Assembly (NCBI GenBank): GCA_944381085.1
Contig: CALWJX010000001.1
Span: forward strand, 83,428 to 147,427
Length of the DNA stretch: 64,000 nucleotides
Source: an uncultured Clostridia bacterium
Lineage (GTDB): Bacteria; Bacillota; Clostridia; Oscillospirales; CAG-272
Reading direction: 5' to 3'
Part shown: positions 53,167 to 63,245 of the stretch, piece by piece
Position numbering within the stretch: position 1 is the first letter of the stretch
How the letters are laid out: every line of letters starts with the position of its first letter
Made by a program: the position numbers and the translations under genes
Notes under the pieces: model-generated
Database searches by the model: none
Told to the model about the DNA's origin: nothing
Seen by the model: the letters and a program-made list of their open reading frames with translations, nothing else

Positions 53167-54547
53167 GCGTTTTTTATATTTAAAGCAGCTTTTGACGCTG
53201 ATGACGGCATCAAAAATACGTCTTGTTTTGATCTTCGCGGGAGTTTTTGCCGGAATTTTTTTGCTTTCATTGGGAAATCTCCTGATAAGCTCGTATTATG
53301 ATTCCAAGATGGCGGACATAATGCAGGTTCCCTCAAATGTCGTAGAGGTGTATGTCAGCGAGGAACTTAATGATATTGATAAAGAAAATATGCTGTTTGT
53401 CGAGCCTTTTGAAAAAAGCTGTCAAGTAGTCAGAGCCGGATACTCCGTATCTGAAAACCGGGGAATATTTGTCGACCGTCTGGCTGTGAACCCGTCGAAA
53501 AGTGTAAACGTAAGTCTTGATGTGTGTTTCACCGATGATGAGAATATTGTTTTTGTACAGAATGATAATTTTGAAAATATAGTGATAGAGGCGGAAATAA
53601 TAAAGGGAAGGGGGTTCAGTGAGGATGAGATAAAATCAGGCGCCCCGGTCATTATTATAGATGAGGCTTCGGCGTTTATGCTTTTCGGAGAGGATGACCC
53701 TATAGGGCAGACTGTTGATTTGGGAAATCATGAGGTTTTGGGACTTGAAACCCCGGACCCCGATACCGGAAAGTATTTTACGGATAAAAATCCTTTTACG
53801 GTAATCGGCGTATATAAAAACAATTTAAAGACCGAGCAGAATATAATGGATTTCAAATCCGATTATTACGGCGAGGGCAAATATGTAGGGGATATCGTGA
53901 TAAATTCATTTACCTCGTTTGCCTCGGTGCCTTATAATGCAGGCGAAGCCGCTTATCGCTTGGGCAGTTCAAGAGCCATGGACTATTCATATGTTTATGT
54001 TTTTGAAAATGAAAAAGACGCGGATAATTTCGCCGACATATTCAGAAACGAGTATTCAGAATATTTGATGAATACTTATGCGGTAAACACAGAGGTAAGC
54101 ACACGGCGTATTTTGACCGAGCAGTTGGACGGCGAGCTTGCTCCGCTTAAGCTCTTTCTCAATGCCGCTGTAATCTCACTGATAGCTATTTCCGGTATTT
54201 GCAATGTCGCGGTAGTTATATTCAATACAAAAGAGCGGTTTACCGAAATAGGAATAAGGAAGACATACGGGGCGGGCAGCTCGCAGATCATATGTCAGAT
54301 AATACTTGAAAATCTTATGGTTTCGGTTGTTGCCTCGGTTTTCGCCGTTATTGTCAGCATTTTAGCGGGATATCTGATTTCGGGATATATACAGGATGTA
54401 TTTAGTGTATTGTTTGATATTAATGTCAAACCGGGCACGGTTTTGCTCCCGTTGTTTGCCGGGGCTGCCGAGGGAATAGTATTCGGACTTATACCGGCAG
54501 TCTGGGCGTCAAAGGCAAAGATTGCGGATATACTTAAGTTTGAATAA
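53159..54547 (+). CDS. ABC transporter permease, FtsX/MacB-like
   Basis: N-terminal TM, a large extracytoplasmic domain, then three C-terminal TMs with IGIRKTYGAGSSQI. Overlaps the ATPase gene by 8 nt. Confidence 0.85.
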   Translation: MNKRFLYLKQLLTLMTASKIRLVLIFAGVFAGIFLLSLGNLLISSYYDSKMADIMQVPSNVVEVYVSEELNDIDKENMLFVEPFEKSCQVVRAGYSVSENRGIFVDRLAVNPSKSVNVSLDVCFTDDENIVFVQNDNFENIVIEAEIIKGRGFSEDEIKSGAPVIIIDEASAFMLFGEDDPIGQTVDLGNHEVLGLETPDPDTGKYFTDKNPFTVIGVYKNNLKTEQNIMDFKSDYYGEGKYVGDIVINSFTSFASVPYNAGEAAYRLGSSRAMDYSYVYVFENEKDADNFADIFRNEYSEYLMNTYAVNTEVSTRRILTEQLDGELAPLKLFLNAAVISLIAISGICNVAVVIFNTKERFTEIGIRKTYGAGSSQIICQIILENLMVSVVASVFAVIVSILAGYLISGYIQDVFSVLFDINVKPGTVLLPLFAGAAEGIVFGLIPAVWASKAKIADILKFE

Positions 54548-54654
54548 TCGTTTTGCGAGGTACAGCAAAAGAGGTCAAAAAGCTTAAAAAAGAGAGAAAA
54601 CAGGAGTTATTGGGCATGTAAATTAAAAAATCCGAAAAAACTTGAAAAAAGGTA

Positions 54655-54683
54655 TTGACAAAATTTTCTGTATGTGGTATAAT
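54655..54683 (+). promoter_or_regulatory. Consensus sigma-A promoter of rplM-rpsI
   Basis: TTGACA (54655-54660), 17 nt, extended -10 TGgTATAAT (TATAAT at 54678-54683). Confidence 0.75.
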
Positions 54684-54735
54684 ACACGGGTATGAAAAAT
54701 AAAAGTATGCCTAATAAAGTTGGAGGATAACTAAA

Positions 54736-55164
54736 ATGTCTACATTTATGCAGAAAAAGGAAGCAGTTGTCCGCAAATGGTATGTTATCGACGCGGCGGG
54801 AAAGCCCATGGGTAAAACTGCTGTCGCGGCTGCAAACCTTCTTCGCGGAAAAAACGCTCCCGAATTCACGCCGCATGTCGACTGCGGAAATTTTGTAATA
54901 ATAATCAATGCGGATAAAGCAGTCCTTACGGGAAAGAAGCTTGAGCAGAAATATTACCAGAGACACTCCGGATATATCGGCGGACTTAAGAGTGTTCAGT
55001 ATAAGACACTTATGAGTACCAAGCCGGAATTTGCCATGGAGACAGCAGTAAAGGGAATGCTCCCCAAAAATTCACTCGGCCGTGCCGCTGCAACCAGACT
55101 TAAGGTTTACGCCGGCGACTCTCATAAGCATCAGGCGCAGAAGCCCGAAGCTTACGAGTTTTAA
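54736..55164 (+). CDS. rplM: 50S ribosomal protein L13
   Basis: [13 protein letters not shown]..., 142 aa. Confidence 0.97.
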
Positions 55165-55190
55165 TTTGATGAAAGGACGGATGTAAACTG

Positions 55191-55592
55191 ATGTATACAA
55201 GTGCTAAACCCTATTTTTACGGAACGGGAAGAAGAAAAAAGTCTGTTGCCCGTGTAAGAGTTTATCCCGGAACAGGTTCAATTACCGTAAACGGAAAGGA
55301 TATTGACGAGTACTTCGGCCTTGAAACACTGAAGCTTATAATTAATCAGCCTTTCGGTGTTACAGGCACGACCGGAAAGTTTGATATAGTTGTTAATGTA
55401 AACGGCGGAGGCATTTCCGGTCAGGCAGGCGCTATCCGCCACGGAATAGCGCGCGCTCTTGTTCTGGCGGATGAGACTTATCGTCCGGCGCTCAAGCAGG
55501 CAGGATTTTTGACCAGAGACCCTCGTATGAAAGAAAGAAAGAAATACGGACTCAAGGCTGCCCGCCGTGCTCCCCAGTTCTCAAAGAGATAA
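55191..55592 (+). CDS. rpsI: 30S ribosomal protein S9
   Basis: [12 protein letters not shown] ... C-terminal RAPQFSKR, 133 aa. Confidence 0.97.
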
Positions 55593-55610
55593 TTATTTTA
55601 TCAATAAATT

Positions 55611-55650
55611 GGCTTGTTTACAAGGTTTTACCTTGTTGCAAGCCTTTTTT
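55611..55650 (+). terminator. Intrinsic terminator after rpsI
   Basis: GGCTTG..ACAAGG tttta CCTTGT.CAAGCC followed by TTTTTT. Confidence 0.8.
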
Positions 55651-55790
55651 GTTTATATAAAAATTTGCCTTATCTTTGTATGCGTTGTTTAAGTAAACCG
55701 ACTCAATCCCTTTTTTGGATATCAACTTTAAAATATTCAGAGATTTGGTTAAATAATAAATACAAATTCCAAAATAAAGAGGACGTTAAT

Positions 55791-56630
55791 ATGGAAAGAA
55801 AAATCAGTATAAATAAAATCAAAAGCTTTGAGAAATTTTTAAAAAATGAGGAGAAAAGCAAAGCGACAATTGAAAAATATATTCGCGATGTGCGATATTT
55901 TGTGAGTTTTATCGGTGACGGCGCGATTGACAAACAATTAGTATTGAATTATAAAAGTGAGCTTGGAAATTCTTACGCCGTAACGAGCGCAAATTCCATG
56001 ATTGCCGCGCTTAATTCTTTTTTACGTTTCTGCGGCTGGCATAGTTTATGCGTAAGGCAATTCAGAGTGCAGAGACAGGCATATTGCTCTGAGGATAAGG
56101 AACTGACAAAAGCCGAATATATTCGTTTGATTGAATCTGCAAAAGAAAAAAACAATCAAAGACTGGGTCTTATTATTCAGACTATTTGCGGTACAGGTAT
56201 CCGGGTGAGCGAATTAGAGCATATAACCGTGGAGGCATTGTATAAAGGAGAGACGGTAGTCAATTGCAAATGCAAAAGCCGCCGTATTTTTATAGTACCC
56301 GAGCTAAAGAAAAAACTGCTCCGGTACGCGAAGGAGCACAATATCAAATCGGGCGCGGTGTTTATTACGAGAAGCGGTAAACCCGTCAGCAGAATTAATA
56401 TATGGCGGCAGATGAAAGACCTGTGCGAGACGGCAAAGGTTTGTCCGAGTAAGGTGTTTCCGCATAATCTGCGGCACTTGTTCGCGAGAACATTTTACAG
56501 CATTGAAAAAGACATAGCCAAACTTGCGGATATTCTCGGTCATTCAAGCATCAACACCACACGTATTTATATAGTTACAACCGGAGCCGAACATAAGCGC
56601 AAAATGGAAAATATGAAACTTATAATATAA
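55791..56630 (+). CDS. Tyrosine-type site-specific recombinase (279 aa)
   Basis: GTGIRVSEL (Arg), HNLRHLFA (H-x-x-R) and LGHSSINTTRIY (His, Tyr nucleophile). ATG 55791 follows AAGAGGA. The track start at 55614 lies inside the rpsI terminator. Confidence 0.85.
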   Translation: MERKISINKIKSFEKFLKNEEKSKATIEKYIRDVRYFVSFIGDGAIDKQLVLNYKSELGNSYAVTSANSMIAALNSFLRFCGWHSLCVRQFRVQRQAYCSEDKELTKAEYIRLIESAKEKNNQRLGLIIQTICGTGIRVSELEHITVEALYKGETVVNCKCKSRRIFIVPELKKKLLRYAKEHNIKSGAVFITRSGKPVSRINIWRQMKDLCETAKVCPSKVFPHNLRHLFARTFYSIEKDIAKLADILGHSSINTTRIYIVTTGAEHKRKMENMKLII

Positions 56631-56661
56631 AAAAATTCCCCGGTACGGAAATGTCGGGAAT

Positions 56662-56681
56662 AACATAACGAGAATTATGTT
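56662..56681 (+). repeat. Recombination core site A: AACATAA-CGAGAA-TTATGTT
   Basis: 7-bp inverted arms around an asymmetric 6-bp spacer, 32 nt after the recombinase stop. Confidence 0.7.
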
Positions 56682-56704
56682 GCATTTAAACTATAGATGT
56701 GTAT

Positions 56705-56733
56705 AGTATACTACATAAATGTAAAAAAGTCAA
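56705..56733 (-). promoter_or_regulatory. Leftward-facing promoter inside the switch
   Basis: Minus strand reads TTGACT (56733-56728), 17 nt, TATACT (56710-56705). In the present orientation it fires toward site A and antisense into the recombinase gene. Confidence 0.5.
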
Positions 56734-56771
56734 CATATTTGGAAAAAATTTTAAAATTTTTTTTGTATAAT

Positions 56772-56820
56772 GAAAAGACCTTTCGATTGATTTTTCAAAA
56801 AAAACATGAAAGGTTTTTTC
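56772..56820. terminator. Central bidirectional hairpin inside the switch
   Basis: AAAAGACCTTTC (56773-56784) pairs with GAAAGGTTTTTT (56808-56819). The A-run/T-run arrangement suits termination in both directions. Confidence 0.5.
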
Positions 56821-56865
56821 GTCACGCTTATTTTATATGAGCATCATTTAAATTATATTACCGAT

Positions 56866-56893
56866 TTGACGGATTGTTTACATATTTTATAAC
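56866..56893 (+). promoter_or_regulatory. Rightward-facing promoter at the right edge of the switch
   Basis: TTGACG (56866-56871), 16 nt, TATAAC (56888-56893). The -10 element runs into site B. Confidence 0.45.
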
Positions 56894-56910
56894 ATAATTC
56901 TCGTTATGTT
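56891..56910 (-). repeat. Recombination core site B: AACATAA-TTCTCG-TTATGTT (exact reverse complement of site A)
   Basis: 20/20 identity to site A in inverted orientation, 229 bp from A. Confidence 0.7.
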
Positions 56911-56967
56911 GTTATCGTCTCGGTGTACTTGCATCGGGCATTTATTTATATTGAAAATCAATTTCAC

Positions 56968-56986
56968 AACATAATTCTCGTTATGT
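56968..56986 (-). repeat. Recombination core site C: AACATAA-TTCTCG-TTATGT(a)
   Basis: 19/20 identity to site B in the same orientation as B, 77 bp from B and 306 bp from A. Confidence 0.65.
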
Positions 56987-57097
56987 AATATCCGATAAAT
57001 CAAAATTATACTTAATTCGACAATAATTCCGTTTGATAGGATTTCGGTAGTCATACCGATTCTATATAAAAATTTTTAAAGAAAGAAAGGAAAAAAC

Positions 57098-57619
57098 ATG
57101 AAAAACAGAAGAATTATTCTCATTTCGTTCCTGTTGGTCACTACGCTCTGTATGGGAATTGGTTATGCGGAACTTCAGGACACTCTTAGTGTTAAAGGTA
57201 ATGGATCGGTTGAAGCTGAATCTGCTGAGGTTGCTCTTGATGCGGATGTATATTTTTCTAATGCGCAAGCAACAAATGCGACCGATACAGCATCAATATC
57301 TGACGACAATGACAATGACAATGACACGGCAACATTTACAGTTAATTCACTTCAAGGCAAAGATGATAGTGCCACATTTACTTTTACAATAATAAATGAT
57401 GGCGACCTTCCTGTCTCTATACCCAAACCTACAATAACAGACCCTGAGGATTATTTTGATATTACAACAGATTGGGGTGAAGAGGCAAAAGAGTTAGAAG
57501 GTGGTGGCGCTACATTGACATTTACAGTAACCGTTACACTTAATGCAACTCCTACAGAGACTGTTACAATGAGTGCGTCTACGATTTCATTTACCGCAAC
57601 CGCAGGTGGAACACAATAA
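57098..57619 (+). CDS. Small secreted protein with SipW-cognate-like signal peptide (TasA/BsaA-like candidate subunit)
   Basis: MKNRRIILISFLLVTTLCMGIGYAELQDTLSVKGNGSV. The rest is T/D-rich and beta-strand-like, 173 aa. Shares an N-terminal motif with the 60390 gene. Confidence 0.7.
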   Translation: MKNRRIILISFLLVTTLCMGIGYAELQDTLSVKGNGSVEAESAEVALDADVYFSNAQATNATDTASISDDNDNDNDTATFTVNSLQGKDDSATFTFTIINDGDLPVSIPKPTITDPEDYFDITTDWGEEAKELEGGGATLTFTVTVTLNATPTETVTMSASTISFTATAGGTQ

Positions 57620-57668
57620 TAAATGCCATTTTGCACTGCAATAAGTAATTAGCCACAAGGAGGATAAA

Positions 57669-58784
57669 ATGAGTATCGACAAGATAATTACATACGCCGT
57701 AACTGTAGCTTTTCCGTGTTTTATCCTCCTTGTTTACCTGATTCCGGATGATACCTCAAAGAACATCATTCTGGCGGCGTTGTGCGTGCTTTTCGCGGCG
57801 CTTACCCTGTTGTTTATTAAAAAACGCGGTATTCTAAGGCTTGAAAAACGTCAGATACTGCTTGTGATGTCCGTGCTGTCGGTGTTTGTCGTCATGCTCG
57901 GATATATGACGGGGATTAAATTCGGGTTTGTCAAAAACCCCATTGTTACCCTGTACCTTTGGAAATACATTTTGCCCTACGCGGTAATAATAGCTTCTTC
58001 GGAGATTGTCAGAAAAACACTGCTTGCTCAGCAAAGCAGATTTGTATTCATATTTACATATTTCTCGTTCGTTATCCTCGACTGCGCTATGCTGTCGGGA
58101 GGCATAATATTTGACAGGTACGACGATTTCGCGGATTTTTTCGGAATGATACTTTTCCCCGCGCTTACGTCCAACATCCTGTATCACTATCTGTCGGGGC
58201 GGTACGGCGCGCTTCCGAATATCGTTTACAAGACCGTGATTTCGCTCTACAGATATGTAATTCCCATATTGCCCAAAATGCCGGACATGATGCTTTCCTT
58301 CGCGAAGATTATTTTGCCGCTGATAATCTGTCTGTGCATTTATGAGCTTTACAGAAAAAAGAAATCCGTCGTGTCAAGAGTAAGAAACCGCATAGGCATT
58401 GCCGCGGTATGCGTGTCGTTTGTGTTGACGTTTGCCTGCGTCATGCTTATATCCCGTCAGTTTCAATACGGACTTATTGTGGTAGGTTCCGAGAGTATGT
58501 CGGGGGAGATAGAGAAGGGCGACGGAATTGTTTTCGAGCAATACGACGGTCAGGTTCTTGAAGAAGGACGGATAATTGTCTTCAACCGGGACGGAACCGA
58601 AATAATCCACCGTATTATTGATGTGGAGAACATAAACGGTGAAATACGTTATTATACAAAGGGCGACGCCAACGACAGCGCCGACCCCGGATATATCACG
58701 TCCGACGACATAGTCGGCACATTAACCCTGAATATAAAGTATATCGGACTTCCGACAATTTGGATCCGATCGTTGTTTACATAG
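57669..58784 (+). CDS. Polytopic membrane domain fused to a SipW/ER-type signal peptidase I domain
   Basis: About 260 aa of TM-rich sequence, then VGSESMSGEIEKGD ... IIHRII ... TKGDANDSAD. These correspond to SGSMEP / THRIV / KGDNN in B. subtilis SipW. Confidence 0.75.
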   Translation: MSIDKIITYAVTVAFPCFILLVYLIPDDTSKNIILAALCVLFAALTLLFIKKRGILRLEKRQILLVMSVLSVFVVMLGYMTGIKFGFVKNPIVTLYLWKYILPYAVIIASSEIVRKTLLAQQSRFVFIFTYFSFVILDCAMLSGGIIFDRYDDFADFFGMILFPALTSNILYHYLSGRYGALPNIVYKTVISLYRYVIPILPKMPDMMLSFAKIILPLIICLCIYELYRKKKSVVSRVRNRIGIAAVCVSFVLTFACVMLISRQFQYGLIVVGSESMSGEIEKGDGIVFEQYDGQVLEEGRIIVFNRDGTEIIHRIIDVENINGEIRYYTKGDANDSADPGYITSDDIVGTLTLNIKYIGLPTIWIRSLFT

Positions 58785-58813
58785 AATTTTTAAATGTACA
58801 AGGAGGGGGCGTT

Positions 58814-60328
58814 ATGTCAGAAAAAGAAAAACTACAGCGCGACGAATATCAGAAAAGCCGTAAAAAACTGATTTTTTTGTTCTCGGTAATTGCTCTGGCG
58901 CTGGCATTTTTAACGGTGGTTACTTCCGTTGTCTTTGGGATACTCGACAGAAAGACATATGTTTCTTTCAAAGAACAGGGAAGCGTCGTATATAAGGCTT
59001 ACCTTGCCGACAATGAGTTTTACAGCGAGGAGTATCTCAACGGTAACCACGCCTATGTGGCGGAGCTGATTGAGAGCATGACCGCGGATTTCAGATACGA
59101 CCTGAATATGGACGCGAAAGACGTTACATATAAGTATTCGTATAATGTTGAAGCGGTGCTTGAGATTAAAGATCGCAATTCGGGCATGGTTATCTATAAC
59201 CCGGTATATGAGCTTGTTCCCGAAACCTCTGCGACTTCAGGCGACAGAGACCTTTCAATCGAGGATAATGTGTACATAGATTACAACATGTACAATGATA
59301 TCGCCAAAAACTTTCTTGAGGTATACGAGCTTAACAACACAACAAACACTTTGCGTGTAAGTATGTATGTGGATGTTGTGGGAGAGAGCGAGACATTCGC
59401 GAACGATAAAGAGGGACAGTATGTCATAGAGCTTTCGATACCATTGGCTCAGACCACAGTTACTCCGCAGGTATCGGCGTCGGTTCCGGCTTCTTCTCAA
59501 GTGCTCGCGCTTGATGGAATCGCTAAAATAGTACTGAAAGTTCTCGCAATCGTGTTCGGCGTTCTGTGCGGACTGATGATTGTCTTTACGGTTTTGTTTA
59601 TCGTACTTACCAGAGACGAGCATCTGGATTATTCCAGAAAAGTTCAGAAGCTTGTCGCGAGCTATAAATCTTATATACAGAAAATCAATAATCCCTTTGA
59701 TATGGAAGGGTATCAGATACTTTACGTGGATACGTTCCCGGAAATGCTTGAGATAAGGGATACCATTCAGACCCCGGTGCTCATGTATGAAAATGAAGAC
59801 AGAACCTGCACGCAGTTTTTTATTGCTTCGTGCGCGAAAATACTTTATCTCTTTGAGATTAAGGTTGATTTTCCGCCGGCTCCTCCGGAAGACCCTATAG
59901 ATTCCGAGCCTGTTTTGGAAGTTGTTACTCCCGAGCCTGAGCCTGAACCTATACCTGAGCCTGAACCCGAACCGGAACCCGAGCCTATACCTGAACCGGA
60001 ACCCGAACCGATAATTGAACCTGAACCGATTCCCGAACCCGAGCCGACAAAAGAAGAGGCGCAGGAAGCCGAGAATATGGTTGACGCTATTGACATCTCG
60101 TGGCCTGAGGGTGACGGCAGGACATACAGATACGACCCTAATGGGGAAAAACTTGATAAAGGCGACGAGGTGCTGGCGCCGTCGTTTGATAAGTTCAGAA
60201 AAAGAGAAATAGTGCGCAAGGCGACAGTCGCGCAGGGAAATTATAAGGTAGACCCCGACAGCTTGGAACATCCGCTTAAGAAAATAGCCGGAGTTGTCAA
60301 GAGAAATCTGTTGAGTATGTTCTGCTGA
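58814..60328 (+). CDS. Bitopic (TM-ectodomain-TM) protein with cytoplasmic PE-repeat linker and C-terminal globular domain
   Basis: ATG 58814 follows AGGAGGGGG. TMs at roughly residues 20-45 and 235-265. PEPEPEPIPEPEPEPEPEPIPEPEPEPIIEPEPIPEPEP. The N-terminal part may be DUF5305-like (from memory only). Confidence 0.7.
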   Translation: MSEKEKLQRDEYQKSRKKLIFLFSVIALALAFLTVVTSVVFGILDRKTYVSFKEQGSVVYKAYLADNEFYSEEYLNGNHAYVAELIESMTADFRYDLNMDAKDVTYKYSYNVEAVLEIKDRNSGMVIYNPVYELVPETSATSGDRDLSIEDNVYIDYNMYNDIAKNFLEVYELNNTTNTLRVSMYVDVVGESETFANDKEGQYVIELSIPLAQTTVTPQVSASVPASSQVLALDGIAKIVLKVLAIVFGVLCGLMIVFTVLFIVLTRDEHLDYSRKVQKLVASYKSYIQKINNPFDMEGYQILYVDTFPEMLEIRDTIQTPVLMYENEDRTCTQFFIASCAKILYLFEIKVDFPPAPPEDPIDSEPVLEVVTPEPEPEPIPEPEPEPEPEPIPEPEPEPIIEPEPIPEPEPTKEEAQEAENMVDAIDISWPEGDGRTYRYDPNGEKLDKGDEVLAPSFDKFRKREIVRKATVAQGNYKVDPDSLEHPLKKIAGVVKRNLLSMFC

Positions 60329-60389
60329 AATCTCGTTGATAACTTAATTCAGGTTGTTTTCTTTGAGTGAAAGGAGGTGTGAAGATAAA

Positions 60390-61472
60390 ATGAAAAGATT
60401 TGTGATTGTTGTAACCTGTATATTGCTCTGCTTTATTTTTGTCTTCACATGTATAGGTTACGCCGCGATTTCCGATACCTTGCAGATTTCGGGAAACGCG
60501 ACCGTGACGCCTCCGGAAGCAGTGTTTATTTCCGGCGCGGAGGTTGTTGGGGGAAACGCTACGGTGACATATTCGGGAACAAGCCTGTTTGTTACCGGAA
60601 GCGGTCAAGTGACAGTCAATATTACATTTTTCAATAATACTGCCGAGGTACATAGGTATAACGGGATAAGCGTGATTGATTCCTCAATTTTCAGCACTTA
60701 CCCTATGAGTATTTCAAGGGGAGCTGAAATCGCCATAAGTGGCACATTGGAAGCGACGATTACGTTAAATATTACCGGCAGCGCGAACGGAGAGGGCATA
60801 GTATTTGACTTTGTAACGGGAGATAGCTATATTGATAATCCGGCGGATCAGTTTGAGGATATACTGAATAATGAGGATAGCTTTAAGGAGCTTGAAGATA
60901 TTTTAAACGATGAGACGACAGTAGGCGGTGAAGGTCAGCGTGGAGACACGTCATATATTCAGAATACCGGAAACAATGCCGATGAAGTGAATAAAATAGT
61001 AAATGAATTGTTTGATGTCAATGGCGAGAGCCTTCTTACCGATGATACTACTGTCCTTATCAAGAGAGAAAACAAGGATGATATGCCACAGGGTGTAGAT
61101 GTTATGACATTGTATTTTGCAGCCACCTCAGAGATAACGTCTAAGGAACCCTCTATTATGGGGGTGACTGAAAATGTCAATGTCAGAGCTGCCATCTTTA
61201 TTAATAATGGTGAAGGTTGGGAACAAATAGTAAATCAGGAAGACGCTGGGAACGGCGGAATGTTTACGGGGGAGGCATTGGCGACATATTATGACTACAA
61301 GTATGAAGAGTGGTGGGGTCAACATCCGAGAGAGAATTATGACTCATTTGACACCGGTACATGGAGTACATACGACAATGGCATCATAACCAACATTGAA
61401 GGAGGGTCAACGGATATCGTGGCAAACGATGATGTCAGAACTATTGTAAACAAATACCTCGGGTATTATTAA
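60390..61472 (+). CDS. Secreted protein with SipW-cognate-like signal peptide (larger candidate subunit)
   Basis: MKRFVIVVTCILLCFIFVFTCIGYAAISDTLQISGNATV. ATG 60390 follows AAGGAGG. 360 aa. Confidence 0.7.
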   Translation: MKRFVIVVTCILLCFIFVFTCIGYAAISDTLQISGNATVTPPEAVFISGAEVVGGNATVTYSGTSLFVTGSGQVTVNITFFNNTAEVHRYNGISVIDSSIFSTYPMSISRGAEIAISGTLEATITLNITGSANGEGIVFDFVTGDSYIDNPADQFEDILNNEDSFKELEDILNDETTVGGEGQRGDTSYIQNTGNNADEVNKIVNELFDVNGESLLTDDTTVLIKRENKDDMPQGVDVMTLYFAATSEITSKEPSIMGVTENVNVRAAIFINNGEGWEQIVNQEDAGNGGMFTGEALATYYDYKYEEWWGQHPRENYDSFDTGTWSTYDNGIITNIEGGSTDIVANDDVRTIVNKYLGYY

Positions 61473-61512
61473 CTGCGGTTGGTATTCGTATAAAAGTAAA
61501 TATAAAATTACA

Positions 61513-61550
61513 GCCCCAAGGCGTCCGAAAACGGTCCTTGGGGCGATTTT
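61513..61550. terminator. Bidirectional terminator between convergent genes
   Basis: GCCCCAAGG (61513-61521) pairs with CCTTGGGGC (61536-61544), followed by GATTTTGTTT. Confidence 0.8.
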
Positions 61551-61577
61551 GTTTACAAATCTGTTTTAAATTCGGTT

Positions 61578-63245
61578 TTATTTCAGCTCAATAATGGATT
61601 CGTCCCACTTTTCGGGTTTTTCGTATCCCATGAGGTTGACCATAGTCGCCGCGACGTCCGAAAGCCCGAACTGTCCCTTGTCCTCTTTCACGGTATAATG
61701 CTCACGCGCGGAGGTGTTGTCGTATATAATACAGGGCACGGGGTTCAGGGTATGGCTTGTCTTGGCTTTCATTTTGCCGTCCTTACCTACCTTGGGAGCG
61801 CCGGTTTTTTTGTCGGTCTCAAACATTTCGTCGGCGTTTCCGTGGTCAGCCGTAATCACCGCCACTCCGCCGCACTTGTCGATTACCGGAAGAATTCTTC
61901 CAAGCTGAAGGTCAAGCGCTTCCACGGAGCAGCGTGTAGCCGCCAGATTTCCGGTGTGACCTACCATGTCCCCGTTCGGGAAATTGACGCGCAGGTAAGT
62001 GTATTTGCCCGACTCAAGTGCTTCGATGAGCTTGTCGGTTATCTCGGCGCACTTCATCCACGGGCGCTGTTCAAAGGGCACGACGTCGGACGGAACCTCC
62101 ACATATGTCTCAAGCTCCTCTGAGAATTTTCCCGACTTGTTTCCGTTCCAGAAATATGTCACATGACCGTATTTCTGCGTTTCGGAGATGGCGTACTGCG
62201 TTACCCCGGTGTTCGCGAGGTATTCGCCCATAGTTTCGGTTATTTCGGGCGGGGATACGAGATATTTGTGAGGAATATGCAAATCTCCGTCGTATTCGAG
62301 CATTCCCGCGTATACGACCTTGGGATAGCGCACTCTGTCGAACTTGTCGAACTCGCCCTCCGGAGTGTCAAAAGCTCTCGAAATTTCAATCGAGCGGTCG
62401 CCTCTGAAGTTGTAAAAGATAACGCTGTCGCCGTCTTCAATGGTTCCTACCGGCTTTCCGTCTTCGGCAATGACAAAAGGCGGGAGGTCCTGGTCGATGA
62501 CGTGATATTCGTCTCTGTAAGCCTTTACGGCGTCCGCCGCACAGGAAAACTGTCTGCCGATGCCGAGCACGTGTGTCTGCCAGCCAAGCTCAACCATAGC
62601 CCAGTTTGCCTCGTATCTGTCCATGGTTATCTTCATTCTTCCGCCGCCGCTCGCGATTTTTATATCGCAGTTATCGTCGCGCAGGGAAGCGATAAACTCC
62701 TCAAAAGGATTTATATATTCAAGCGCCGAGGTCTCTCCCACGTCCCGTCCGTCGATGAGAATGTGTATTCTTATGCGACCTACGCCTTCACTTTTCGCGT
62801 GTACTATCATGGCTCTCAGGTGTTCAATATTTGAATGAACATTGCCGTCGGAAAAAAGTCCTATAAAGTGCAGGGTGGATTTATTGTCTTTCACATTGGC
62901 GATAATTTCTTTCCAGGTGTTGTTGGCGAACATTTTACCGCTTTCGATAGACTGCGAGACCAGCTTCGCTCCCTGAGCGAAAACCTGACCTGCGCCGAGA
63001 GCGTTGTGTCCGACCTCGCTGTTTCCCATATCGTCGTCCGAGGGAAGACCTACCGCGGTTCCGTGCGCTTTCAGCTTTACCATCGGGTAATTTGCCATAA
63101 GCATGTCAAGGTTAGGAGTGTATGCCGAGGATACGGCGTTGGAGATCGAGTCGGGAGCCAGTCCTATTCCGTCCATAACAACCGTCAGAACGGGACCTTT
63201 AACGCCTTCAAATACGGAAGATTTTTTTAAAATATGTTTTTCCAT
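61578..63245 (-). CDS. gpmI: 2,3-bisphosphoglycerate-independent phosphoglycerate mutase (long form)
   Basis: VVMDGIGL, MGNSEVGHNALGAG (catalytic Ser region) and ITADHGNAD, 555 aa. Confidence 0.9.
   Translation of the reverse strand: MEKHILKKSSVFEGVKGPVLTVVMDGIGLAPDSISNAVSSAYTPNLDMLMANYPMVKLKAHGTAVGLPSDDDMGNSEVGHNALGAGQVFAQGAKLVSQSIESGKMFANNTWKEIIANVKDNKSTLHFIGLFSDGNVHSNIEHLRAMIVHAKSEGVGRIRIHILIDGRDVGETSALEYINPFEEFIASLRDDNCDIKIASGGGRMKITMDRYEANWAMVELGWQTHVLGIGRQFSCAADAVKAYRDEYHVIDQDLPPFVIAEDGKPVGTIEDGDSVIFYNFRGDRSIEISRAFDTPEGEFDKFDRVRYPKVVYAGMLEYDGDLHIPHKYLVSPPEITETMGEYLANTGVTQYAISETQKYGHVTYFWNGNKSGKFSEELETYVEVPSDVVPFEQRPWMKCAEITDKLIEALESGKYTYLRVNFPNGDMVGHTGNLAATRCSVEALDLQLGRILPVIDKCGGVAVITADHGNADEMFETDKKTGAPKVGKDGKMKAKTSHTLNPVPCIIYDNTSAREHYTVKEDKGQFGLSDVAATMVNLMGYEKPEKWDESIIELK

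What the first reader, a model, noticed from the sequence alone, without database searches (positions are those of the whole stretch)
57098..61472. Operon under the switch resembles a SipW/TasA-type fibre or matrix system with non-canonical parts
Seen: four co-directional genes follow the switch. They are a 173-aa secreted protein, a membrane::SipW-type peptidase fusion, a bitopic TM-ectodomain-TM protein with a PE-repeat, and a 360-aa secreted protein. They end at a strong terminator. Established: ER/SipW-type signal peptidases in Firmicutes process dedicated substrates that polymerise into matrix fibres (TasA/TapA in Bacillus, BsaA in C. perfringens). Inference: this is a phase-variable surface fibre or biofilm-matrix module. 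I am not aware of a described case where recombinase-controlled phase variation is coupled to a SipW-type system, nor of this accessory-gene set.
Basis: partly seen in the sequence, partly recalled or inferred. Interest (0 to 1): 0.75.

Follow-up and report, generated by a model that had tools for sequence, protein, structure and literature searches.

The report
Phase-variable SipW-type surface fibre operon
An uncultured gut Clostridia bacterium carries a four-gene operon that most likely builds a secreted surface fibre related in design to Bacillus TasA and archaeal bundling pili; a DNA-inversion switch turns it on and off, and its main subunit differs sharply between strains.

Summary
Four co-directional genes (57098-61472) end at a strong terminator.

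- **g2** is a polytopic membrane domain fused to an ER/archaeal-type signal peptidase I. It scores 73.8 bits against TIGR02228 (cutoff 51.85), and Ser276/His314/Asp333 are invariant.
- **g3** is a DUF5305 protein.
- **g1 and g4** are acidic secreted proteins. They share a signal and N-terminal strand motif, G-[YF]-A|A-[LVI]-[TS]-D-x-L-x-[IV]-x-G-x-A-x-V. g4 is a g1-like module plus an extra C-terminal part.
- **TasA HMMs:** PF12389 and TIGR04088 do not hit g1 or g4.

The g1-g2-g3 order recurs in 36 Oscillospiraceae/Clostridia genomes assembled from metagenomes. Recent papers on haloarchaeal Tafi pili and on AbpX already describe a dedicated peptidase plus DUF5305 next to donor-strand fibre subunits. 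The accessory set is therefore not new.

Two things are new:
- **The switch is real.** It has three recombination sites, and three arrangements appear in independent metagenome assemblies. Only one arrangement points the best promoter at the operon. The window is OFF.
- **g1 is hypervariable.** Alleles are only 40-45% identical between strains whose flanking genes are 96-100% identical.

Polymerisation itself is inferred, not shown. I rate this a new variant of a known kind, interest about 0.6.

The parts
55791..56630 (+). Tyrosine recombinase (279 aa), the presumed invertase of the switch
   Evidence: Pfam Phage_integrase scores 81.5 bits plus an N-terminal SAM-like domain. The best NCBIfam matches are Xer-like and below their cutoffs. 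The gene sits directly next to the inverted repeats. It is 96-100% conserved in all strains that carry the switch.
56654..56682 (.). Left inverted repeat (IRL), with the 20-nt core AACATAACGAGAATTATGTT at 56662-56681
   Evidence: The window holds three copies of the core, against 0.01 expected by chance.
56683..56887 (.). Invertible segment X. It carries the best promoter (TTGACT-17-TATACT, on the - strand at 56733..56705 in this window) and a hairpin at 56770-56822 that acts as a + strand terminator in this orientation.
   Evidence: The promoter scan gives 10 of 12 matches. The hairpin folds at -17.5 kcal/mol, z -3.9, and is followed by U6. X is found in both orientations in metagenome contigs.
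56888..56913 (.). Middle repeat, in reverse orientation in this window
   Evidence: In contigs L001, L003, L004, L006, L047, L048 and L051 it is in forward orientation and lies 77 nt from IRL.
56914..56965 (.). Invertible segment Y (52 nt), with a weak terminator-like hairpin at 56919-56938
   Evidence: -9.6 kcal/mol, z -1.6. Y is found inverted and relocated next to IRL in states B and C.
56966..56995 (.). Right inverted repeat (IRR), core with one mismatch
56996..57097 (+). 5' leader and ribosome-binding site of g1
   Evidence: Read from the sequence. There is no Rfam match, and its fold is no more stable than shuffled sequence.
57098..57619 (+). g1: a 173-aa acidic secreted beta-sandwich protein, the proposed major fibre subunit. 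Its body is hypervariable between strains.
57669..58784 (+). g2: a polytopic membrane domain (residues about 1-240) fused to an ER/archaeal-type signal peptidase I domain (about 247-365)
   Evidence: TIGR02228 scores 73.8 bits against a cutoff of 51.85. Ser276, His314 and Asp333 are invariant. More than 515 full-length homologues of about 371 aa exist.
58814..60328 (+). g3: a DUF5305 protein with the layout TM - ectodomain - TM - cytoplasmic domain, followed by a PE-repeat linker and a C-terminal domain
   Evidence: PF17231 scores 29.7 bits against a cutoff of 29. Nine of 10 orthologues pass, at 29.4-53 bits.
60390..61472 (+). g4: a 360-aa acidic secreted protein made of a g1-like signal, N-terminal strand and beta-sandwich (about 1-144) plus a mixed helix/strand C-terminal part (about 150-360). 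It is the proposed minor, tip or anchoring subunit.
   Evidence: hhalign of the g1 family against the g4 family gives probability 97.9%, E 7e-13, over 161 columns.
61513..61554 (+). Intrinsic terminator closing the operon, shared with the convergent iPGM gene

Best explanation
The operon encodes a self-contained secretion-and-assembly module for an extracellular protein fibre of the TasA/AbpX/Tafi design.

Proposed steps:
- g1 (major subunit) and g4 (a g1-like module plus an extra C-terminal part) are exported by Sec.
- The dedicated peptidase g2, helped by its DUF5305 partner g3, cuts them after the invariant Ala of G-[YF]-A. That is Ala24 in g1 and Ala25 in g4.
- Cleavage frees a conserved N-terminal strand, A-[LVI]-[TS]-D-x-L-x-[IV]-x-G-x-A-x-V.
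- This strand inserts into the beta-sandwich of the next subunit (donor-strand complementation), giving a fibre.
- g4, which carries the same strand, joins the fibre as a terminal or minor subunit.

Expression is phase-variable. The adjacent tyrosine recombinase rearranges a two-segment, three-site switch. Only arrangement B places the TTGACT-17-TATACT promoter facing g1. In the window's arrangement (A) that promoter faces away, and a terminator hairpin blocks read-through, so the window is OFF.

The exposed body of g1 is replaced between strains as a cassette.

Shown here: the gene content, the catalytic residues, the conserved synteny, the shared motif, the alternative DNA arrangements and the allelic hypervariability.

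Inferred: the cleavage site, polymerisation by strand donation, the role of g4, and which arrangement is transcriptionally ON.
For: Peptidase and partner:
- g2 passes the archaeal/ER-type signal peptidase I model.
- Its motifs SESM / IIHRI / KGDAND align with SGSMEP / IVHRV / TKGDNN of SEC11A/C.
- Ser276, His314 and Asp333 are invariant in 36 homologues down to 39% identity.
- g3 is DUF5305. The literature proposes DUF5305 as the partner of dedicated fibre signal peptidases (PMC11821415; PMC12337348; 10.64898/2026.01.04.697558).

Subunits:
- g1 and g4 share the signal and strand motif. The Ala is 100% conserved, the Gly two residues before it 99-100%, Asp at +4 89-90%, Leu at +6 90-94%, and Gly at +10 98-100%.
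- AbpX has the same layout...LTYA|QWSETLSLSATIS, with a structurally essential acidic residue at +4.
- Mature TasA starts AFND.
- Mature g1 has pI 4.05 and 18% Asp+Glu; mature g4 has pI 4.05 and 16%. AbpX-like proteins are reported at pI about 4 and about 15% Asp+Glu.
- In the AF2 models the beta-sandwich core is confident and the N-terminal strand is unstructured. g1 has mean pLDDT 81.6, with residues 26-34 below 50. g4 shows the same. This matches what is reported for AbpX monomers.
- The top Foldseek matches for g1, though weak, are donor-strand pilins: CfaB, the PapG pilin domain and FimG. AbpA (7ueg) is also listed.
- The N-terminal part of g4 is homologous to the whole of g1.

Conservation:
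- g1-g2-g3 synteny holds in 36 genomes.

Switch:
- Three arrangements occur in independent assemblies, and the rec-to-g1 spacer is 467-468 nt in nearly all of them (477-479 nt in the second strain group and L004).
- The promoter and hairpin are described.

Hypervariability:
- g1 alleles are 40-45% identical, while rec is 96-100% and g2 98-99% identical. The boundaries are sharp, at about 57170 and 57640.
Against: - No sequence-level link to TasA. PF12389 and TIGR04088 do not hit g1 or g4. hhalign against TasA gives probability 2%.
- The link to AbpX is not significant outside the signal and strand region. hhalign gives probability 44%. A mature-only HMM does not beat shuffled controls. The g1 profile does not find 9sj2 or 9rhp among PDB sequences at E <= 10.
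- All Foldseek matches are weak: E > 0.003 and TM-score below 0.4.
- The +2 residue is aliphatic, not the aromatic 'clamp' described for AbpX.
- No oligomer model could be computed.
- No cell-wall anchor (LPXTG or SLH) is present in the operon.
- Promoter and terminator assignments rest on consensus scans in A+T-rich DNA.
Confidence: 0.6

Rival explanations
1. g1 and g4 are substrates of a dedicated signal peptidase but do not polymerise by strand donation. They would be monomeric or loosely associated surface-coat or matrix proteins (BslA-like or adhesin-like), and the conserved N-terminal motif would only be the recognition element of g2.
For: The body of g1 gives weak hits to generic Ig-like surface domains: DUF11, CARDB, DUF7507, fn3_5, and BslA in two family members, and B_ant_repeat and choice-of-anchor D. 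There is no significant homology to any solved donor-strand fibre. Foldseek matches are weak.
Against: The conserved motif extends 14 residues past the predicted cleavage site, with strict periodicity (L, D, L, I/V, G, A, V at even positions). That is much longer than a peptidase needs and matches the donor strands of AbpX and TasA. The strand is left unpaired in the monomer models. A second protein carrying the same strand on a larger body is typical of major/minor subunit systems.
Confidence: 0.27
2. The N-terminal hydrophobic segments of g1 and g4 are not cleaved. The proteins would stay membrane-anchored as type II proteins, and g2/g3 would act on other substrates.
For: Cleavage has not been tested. 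TIGR04088 does not recognise the signals.
Against: The invariant G-[YF]-A|A fits the small-residue rule at -1 and -3. It parallels the reported AbpX site (TYA|Q) and the mature start of TasA. Strict co-occurrence of g1 directly upstream of g2 in 36 genomes argues that g1 is the substrate.
Confidence: 0.06
3. The alternative arrangements of the intergenic region do not regulate the operon. They would be neutral rearrangements or would regulate only the recombinase.
For: ON and OFF were assigned from consensus promoter matches only. Most assemblies show arrangements A or C.
Against: The strongest promoter-like site in the region lies inside the invertible segment. It faces g1 only in arrangement B, directly upstream of the right repeat. 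In the other arrangements a stable hairpin with a U-run lies between the recombinase gene and g1. This layout matches classic invertible promoters such as fimS and the C. difficile RecV switches (my own knowledge; papers listed).
Confidence: 0.07

Closest known systems
AbpX-type biomatrix fibre loci of archaea and Bacillota (Pyrodictium abyssi AbpX; bioRxiv 10.64898/2026.01.04.697558)
   Same: The locus content matches: a major subunit, a larger subunit-like protein, a signal peptidase I with many membrane helices, and a DUF5305 accessory protein. The subunits are small (about 150-165 aa mature) and acidic (pI about 4). The signal ends in Y-A. The N-terminal amphipathic strand has an acidic residue at +4 and a T-L-S core (SETLSL against QDTLSV). 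The monomer model leaves the strand unstructured.
   Different: No significant sequence similarity exists in the mature body. Position +2 is Leu/Val/Ile, not aromatic. There is no SLH or LPXTG anchor and no c-di-GMP or two-component genes. Control is by DNA inversion instead. Calcium dependence is untested.
Bacillus subtilis tapA-sipW-tasA operon
   Same: An ER/archaeal-type signal peptidase is dedicated to co-encoded secreted proteins. Mature TasA starts A-F-N-D, against A-L-T-D in the g1 family consensus (the pre-cleavage TasA sequence is from my own knowledge). The fibre forms by N-terminal donor-strand exchange (Boehning et al. 2022, cited). A second protein carries a related N-terminal strand (TapA; my own knowledge).
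   Different: g1 and g4 do not hit PF12389 or TIGR04088, and hhalign gives probability 2%. g2 scores only 53.5 bits against the SipW equivalog, whose cutoff is 190. g2 also has an N-terminal polytopic domain of about 240 aa that SipW lacks. The Bacillus operon has no DUF5305. TasA is regulated by SinR/Spo0A, not by inversion (my own knowledge).
Haloarchaeal Tat-fimbriae (Tafi: TafA/TafE pilins, TafD peptidase, TafG DUF5305)
   Same: A dedicated signal peptidase I is paired with a DUF5305 protein next to donor-strand pilins. Processing of TafA by TafD has been shown genetically.
   Different: Tafi use Tat signals, and they are archaeal. TafD has its catalytic domain at the N-terminus and four membrane helices. 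No inversion switch is reported.
Invertible-promoter phase variation by tyrosine recombinases (E. coli fimS with FimB/FimE; C. difficile RecV switches for cwpV, flgB, cmrRST)
   Same: A tyrosine recombinase gene sits beside a short promoter-bearing segment flanked by inverted repeats, upstream of a surface-structure operon. Both orientations coexist in natural populations (papers listed).
   Different: Here there are three recombination sites and two invertible segments, which allows four arrangements; three were observed. The controlled operon is a signal-peptidase-dependent fibre module. I found no described example of that: none of the 15 best-ranked papers in the three-term search contained SipW.

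Membership tests
Archaeal/ER-type signal peptidase I (TIGR02228; SipW/Sec11 type) | Score above the curated cutoff of the family model | tested here: met
   g2 scores 73.8 bits against a cutoff of 51.85, over residues 247-363.
Archaeal/ER-type signal peptidase I (TIGR02228; SipW/Sec11 type) | Catalytic Ser and His (not Ser/Lys), plus the conserved Asp of the GDxN box | tested here: met
   SESM, IIHRI and KGDAND align with SGSMEP, IVHRV and TKGDNN of human SEC11A/C. Ser276, His314, Asp333 and Asp339 are invariant in 36 homologues. That the aligned Ser, His and Asp are the catalytic residues of SEC11 is my own knowledge.
Bacillus SipW equivalog (NF046067) | Score above the equivalog cutoff | tested here: not met
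   53.5 bits against a cutoff of 190. g2 is SipW-like in type but is not a SipW orthologue.
DUF5305 (PF17231), the proposed signal-peptidase accessory subunit | Score above the Pfam gathering cutoff, and the TM - ectodomain - TM - cytoplasmic domain layout | tested here: met
   g3 scores 29.7 bits against a cutoff of 29. Nine of 10 orthologues score 29.4-53 bits. Two membrane segments lie at 16-47 and 229-270. The layout is as described.
TasA/camelysin (Peptidase_M73, PF12389) | Match to the family HMM, or profile-level homology to TasA | tested here: not met
   PF12389 is not among the hits for g1 or g4 at E <= 1, nor among the 25 most frequent families for the 27 members. hhalign of the g1 family against TasA gives probability 2%.
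SipW-dependent-type signal peptide (TIGR04088) | Match to the signal-peptide model | tested here: not met
   No hit for g1 or g4 at E <= 1. Only 5 of 140 family members hit, weakly (best E 0.0032).
AbpX clade of the TasA superfamily | Sequence homology of the mature domain to AbpX | tested here: inconclusive
   hhalign gives probability 44%, E 2e-4, over 102 columns that include the signal. BLASTP gives E 0.009. A mature-only HMM does not exceed 5000 shuffles. The profile search of PDB sequences does not find 9sj2 or 9rhp.
AbpX clade of the TasA superfamily | Amphipathic N-terminal donor strand with an aromatic residue at +2 and an acidic residue at +4; low pI | tested here: inconclusive
   An acidic residue at +4 is met (Asp in 89-90%), and pI is 4.05. 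An aromatic residue at +2 is not met: it is Leu/Val/Ile in 96%. The cleavage site is assumed.
Donor-strand-complemented fibre (any family) | The N-terminal strand of one subunit completes the fold of the next subunit | not testable with these tools
   Only monomer predictions were possible. They leave residues 26-34 (g1) and 22-33 (g4) unstructured.
Recombinase-controlled invertible promoter (phase variation) | Both orientations of a segment flanked by inverted repeats exist in natural populations, with a site-specific recombinase adjacent | tested here: met
   Arrangement A is found in the window, L002, L005, L007, L009, L049, L050, L052 and L056. Arrangement B is found in L001 and at the end of contig L008. 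Arrangement C is found in L003, L004, L006, L047, L048 and L051. The recombinase is at 55791-56630.
Recombinase-controlled invertible promoter (phase variation) | Orientation-dependent transcription of the downstream operon | not testable with these tools
   Only consensus promoter and terminator matches are available.

The most novel reading that the evidence does not exclude
g1 defines a very large, unannotated family of donor-strand surface pili in gut Oscillospirales and other Clostridia: 6,641 clusters at 50% identity match its profile. In this lineage the pilus would be both antigenically hypervariable, through cassette-like replacement of the subunit body, and switched by a three-site, four-state inversion element. 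That would be a Gram-positive commensal counterpart of phase-variable and antigenically variable pili in pathogens.
Probability: 0.4. Interest if true: 0.75.

Novelty: new variant of a known kind. Interest (0 to 1): 0.6.

Why it matters
Oscillospiraceae and related Clostridia are abundant gut anaerobes that are rarely cultured, and their surface structures are almost unknown.

If this module builds a fibre, three things follow:
- It extends the newly recognised TasA/AbpX/Tafi type of chaperone-free, signal-peptidase-dependent pili to a large unannotated protein family in animal gut microbiomes.
- It shows such fibres under the same pressures as pathogen pili: on/off switching and strain-level replacement of the exposed subunit. 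That points to phage or host immune selection.
- It gives a concrete DUF5305 / multi-TM peptidase pair with a clear substrate motif, which could be used to test what DUF5305 does.

Tried and rejected
- **TasA, camelysin and SipW-cognate HMMs on g1 and g4:** no hits. PF12389 is not among the top families for the 27 family members, and TIGR04088 hits only 5 of 140 weakly.
- **PDB sequence searches:** the single-sequence searches with g1 and g4 and the profile search with the g1 family gave only chance-level hits.
- **hhalign against TasA:** probability 2%.
- **AbpX comparison:** suggestive only in the signal and strand region. The mature-only HMM does not beat shuffles.
- **Foldseek on the g4 model:** only adaptin-appendage-like and MSP-like beta-sandwich matches, with TM-score below 0.2 on the full length. 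These give no functional clue.
- **Pfam on 36 g2 homologues:** no family covers the N-terminal membrane domain.
- **Rfam on 54500-62000:** nothing, so there is no riboswitch in the leader.
- **g1-g2 spacer and leader:** no structure more stable than shuffled sequence.
- **Organism name:** cluster look-up returned no names.
- **Genome scan with the full g1 alignment:** failed for lack of a conserved stretch. It worked with a narrower alignment.
- **Census of switch states in JGI metagenomes:** one extra contig only, in state A.
- **Enzyme hypothesis for g1 and g4:** rejected, because no catalytic family or fold was found.
- **Switches in the 36 related loci:** rejected as a general feature. There is no adjacent recombinase and no inverted repeat of 18 nt or more, except in one locus. 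The method recovers the window's repeats as a control.

Full report
**1. Observation check**

The four + strand ORFs are present as described.
- g1 is 57098-57619 (173 aa).
- g2 is 57669-58784 (371 aa).
- g3 is 58814-60328, 504 aa from the ATG that gene calls on other contigs use. The longest ORF starts at 58760.
- g4 is 60390-61472 (360 aa).

Gaps between the genes are 29-61 nt. Hydropathy gives one N-terminal hydrophobic segment in g1 and one in g4. It gives at least six strong membrane segments in g2 before residue 265, plus weaker candidates. It gives exactly two in g3 (16-47 and 229-270).

The operon ends at a 9-bp G+C stem (61513-61545) followed by a U-run. The convergent phosphoglycerate mutase gene shares this terminator.

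**2. The peptidase (g2)**

The C-terminal 120 residues pass the curated model for archaeal/ER-type signal peptidase I: TIGR02228 scores 73.8 bits against a cutoff of 51.85. They fall far below the Bacillus SipW equivalog (53.5 bits against 190).

Against human SEC11A/C, the motifs SESM, IIHRI and KGDAND align with SGSMEP, IVHRV and TKGDNN. Ser276, His314, Asp333 and Asp339 are invariant in 36 homologues down to 39% identity.

The N-terminal polytopic domain of about 240 residues has no Pfam family. It is nevertheless a fixed part of the protein: more than 515 database proteins of about 371 aa align over their full length. The few that carry a name are called 'signal peptidase I' in Clostridia genomes assembled from metagenomes.

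**3. The accessory protein (g3)**

g3 meets the DUF5305 cutoff (29.7 bits against 29). So do nine of 10 orthologues from related loci (29.4-53 bits). The match covers the end of the ectodomain, the second membrane helix and the following cytoplasmic domain.

The PE-repeat and the C-terminal domain after it vary in length between species; orthologues range from 376 to 851 aa. By the positive-inside rule this tail is cytoplasmic (inference).

**4. The secreted proteins (g1 and g4)**

Neither protein hits an enzyme family, TasA/camelysin (PF12389) or the SipW-cognate signal model (TIGR04088).

The g1 family looked small in the word-indexed search, with 27 hits. It is large in the exhaustive profile search: 6,641 cluster representatives at E <= 0.001 and 236 at E <= 1e-30, nearly all 165-200 aa.

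Weak domain hits across family members are to generic Ig-like surface domains: DUF11, CARDB, DUF7507, fn3_5, BslA and choice-of-anchor D.

Profile-profile comparison shows that residues 1-144 of g4 are homologous to the whole of g1 (probability 97.9%, E 7e-13). g4 is therefore a g1-like module plus about 215 extra residues.

Both families share the motif G-[YF]-A | A-[LVI]-[TS]-D-x-L-x-[IV]-x-G-x-A-x-[VI]. The Ala is 100% conserved, the Gly two residues before it 99-100%, Asp at +4 89-90%, Leu at +6 90-94%, and Gly at +10 98-100%. If cleavage follows the invariant Ala, the mature proteins have pI 4.05 and 16-18% Asp+Glu.

The AF2 models are confident for the cores (g1 mean pLDDT 81.6; g4 79.2). 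They leave the N-terminal strand unstructured: below pLDDT 50 at residues 26-34 in g1 and 22-33 in g4. g4 has a beta-sandwich at 45-143 followed by a mixed helix/strand part at about 150-360.

Foldseek against the PDB finds nothing significant for g1. The best weak matches are donor-strand pilins (CfaB, the PapG pilin domain, FimG), and AbpA (7ueg) is further down. g4 gives only weak beta-sandwich-plus-platform matches.

**5. Conservation of the module**

A scan of one genome per species found 36 loci. All are genomes assembled from animal-gut metagenomes and labelled Oscillospiraceae, Acutalibacteraceae, Vescimonas, Faecousia, Ruminococcus, Clostridia or Eubacteriales.

Wherever the contig extends downstream of g1, the order g1-g2-g3 is kept (L015 alone shows only g1). 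A g4-like gene lies either after g3 or before g1, and some loci have two g1 copies. The four genes are thus a conserved functional unit.

The recombinase is not part of that unit. Only one locus had even a weak, distant match, and only one locus (L023) has a long inverted repeat upstream of g1. The repeat finder recovers the window's own repeats as a positive control.

**6. The switch**

The spacer between the recombinase gene and g1 holds three copies of a 20-nt core: 56662 on the + strand, 56891 on the - strand, and 56968 on the - strand with one mismatch. Chance expectation is 0.01 copies. The copies delimit two segments, X (205 nt) and Y (52 nt).

Contigs from independent samples and assemblers that encode the identical g1, or an allele at the same locus, show three arrangements. 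The spacer length is the same in nearly all of them: 467-468 nt, or 477-479 nt in the second strain group and L004.

| State | Order | Where found |
|---|---|---|
| A | IRL-X-IR-Y-IRR | window, L002, L005, L007, L009, L049, L050, L052, L056 |
| B | IRL-Y'-IR-X'-IRR | L001, and the end of contig L008 |
| C | IRL-Y'-IR-X-IRR | L003, L004, L006, L047, L048, L051 |

A fourth state (X'-Y) is predicted but was not seen. Two contigs end at or just downstream of the switch, as often happens at invertible DNA.

The best promoter match in the region is TTGACT-17-TATACT, with 10 of 12 consensus positions. It lies in X and points away from the operon in A and C. It points at g1, directly before the right repeat, only in B.

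In A and C a stable hairpin followed by U6 (56770-56822; -17.5 kcal/mol, z -3.9) stands between the recombinase gene and g1.

I therefore read B as ON, and A (the window) and C as OFF. That assignment is an inference from consensus matches.

**7. Hypervariable major subunit (new observation)**

Between the window and contig L047:
- the ribosomal proteins are 100% identical;
- the recombinase is 96.8% identical;
- g2 is 98.9% identical;
- g3 is 97.0% identical;
- the mutase is 98.6% identical;
- g1 is only 40.0% identical (59.5% at the nucleotide level);
- g4 is 85.6% identical.

A third allele (L054) is 45% identical to both. L004 combines the L047-type recombinase (100% identical) with the window's g1 allele (100% identical), so alleles move between backgrounds.

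Nucleotide identity falls from 100% to about 40-60% at about 57170-57196, just after the codons for the signal and N-terminal strand. It recovers at about 57640, in the spacer before g2. This is the pattern expected for an exposed structural antigen.

**8. Comparison with known systems**

Three papers hold the key context.
- In Haloarcula, the peptidase TafD processes the pilin TafA. A DUF5305 protein (TafG) is encoded alongside. Peptidase/DUF5305 pairs and fusions recur in archaea and bacteria (PMC11821415; PMC12337348).
- The AbpX preprint describes a clade of the TasA superfamily in archaea, Bacillota and Chloroflexota. Its loci hold minor subunits, tip proteins, a signal peptidase I with ten membrane helices and a DUF5305 accessory protein. 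Its subunits have pI about 4 and an N-terminal donor strand with an aromatic residue at +2 and an acidic residue at +4.
- AbpX itself reads ...IGLTYA|QWSETLSLSATIS. g1 reads ...IGYA|ELQDTLSVKGNGS.
- Mature TasA starts AFND.

In gene content and subunit design, the window's operon is therefore a member of this recently described kind.

By sequence, membership of the subunit is not established.
- Against TasA, hhalign gives probability 2%.
- Against AbpX, it gives 44%, and the match includes the signal.
- A mature-only HMM does not beat shuffles.
- The family profile does not find AbpX among PDB sequences, although 9SJ2 and 9RHP are present there.

**9. Mechanism**

Shown:
- a dedicated, catalytically intact ER-type signal peptidase with its DUF5305 partner;
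- two co-encoded substrates that share a long conserved N-terminal motif;
- conserved synteny;
- alternative DNA arrangements;
- subunit hypervariability.

Inferred:
- cleavage after Ala24 (g1) and Ala25 (g4);
- polymerisation by insertion of the freed strand into the next subunit;
- g4 as a terminal or minor subunit;
- B as the ON state.

The main rival is that g1 and g4 are processed surface proteins that do not polymerise. The 14-residue periodic motif, the unpaired strand in the models and the major/minor subunit pattern argue against this but do not exclude it.

**10. Novelty and score**

Three things are not described there, as far as I could find (and the papers read):
- control of such a module by a recombinase switch;
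- the three-site, multi-state form of that switch;
- the strain-level hypervariability of the subunit.

In addition, the subunit family is large, unannotated and not demonstrably homologous to TasA or AbpX. I rate it a new variant of a known kind, with interest 0.6.

Noticed in passing
window 57170-57640 (body of g1); L047 5734-6306, L054 1397-1945, L055 147-725: g1 exists as at least three allele classes that are only 40-45% identical, inside a locus whose other genes are 96-100% identical. The breakpoints are sharp: one just after the signal and N-terminal strand codons, one before g2. L004 pairs one recombinase type with the other strain group's g1 allele, so alleles are exchanged by recombination.
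   Followed up: yes
window 56654-56995: The switch has three recombination sites and two invertible segments (X 205 nt, Y 52 nt), not a simple two-site invertible element. Three of the four possible arrangements occur in public assemblies. The X'-Y arrangement was not seen. Y carries a weak terminator-like hairpin, so the unseen state might be an attenuated ON state.
   Followed up: partly
L023 7394-7465 and 7659-7730: A 72-nt inverted repeat pair with 2 mismatches flanks 193 nt, about 250 nt upstream of the g1 homologue of a sheep-colon Clostridia genome assembled from a metagenome. It may be an independent invertible element or a mobile repeat. No recombinase was detected next to it.
   Followed up: no
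L008 1-167; L010 1-40: Two metagenome contigs carrying the operon end at or near the switch: L008 breaks inside it, and L010 ends about 60 nt downstream of the right repeat. This is expected if both orientations were present in the sequenced population. The end of L008 shows the ON-type junction, with the promoter next to the right repeat.
   Followed up: partly
protein P0095 (2421 aa, from the profile search): A giant protein contains 19 tandem matches to the central part of the g1 domain. The g1 beta-sandwich therefore also occurs as a repeat unit in large surface proteins.
   Followed up: no
window 59895-60070 (g3 residues about 361-420): The PE/PEPI repeat in the cytoplasmic tail of g3 differs by a couple of residues between strains (504 against 502 aa). 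The whole tail after DUF5305 ranges widely between species (376-851 aa total). It looks like a lineage-specific add-on of unknown role.
   Followed up: partly
window 56637-56651 (- strand): A small hairpin followed by a T-run lies on the - strand between the recombinase stop codon and the left repeat. It could stop transcripts from the OFF-facing promoter before they run antisense into the recombinase gene. Its fold is no more stable than shuffled sequence.
   Followed up: partly
window 55614-55790: The longest ORF of the recombinase starts at a TTG 177 nt upstream of the ATG that gene calls on other contigs use. The 279-aa form matches the family models from residue 4 onward, so the extension is probably not translated.
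   Followed up: no
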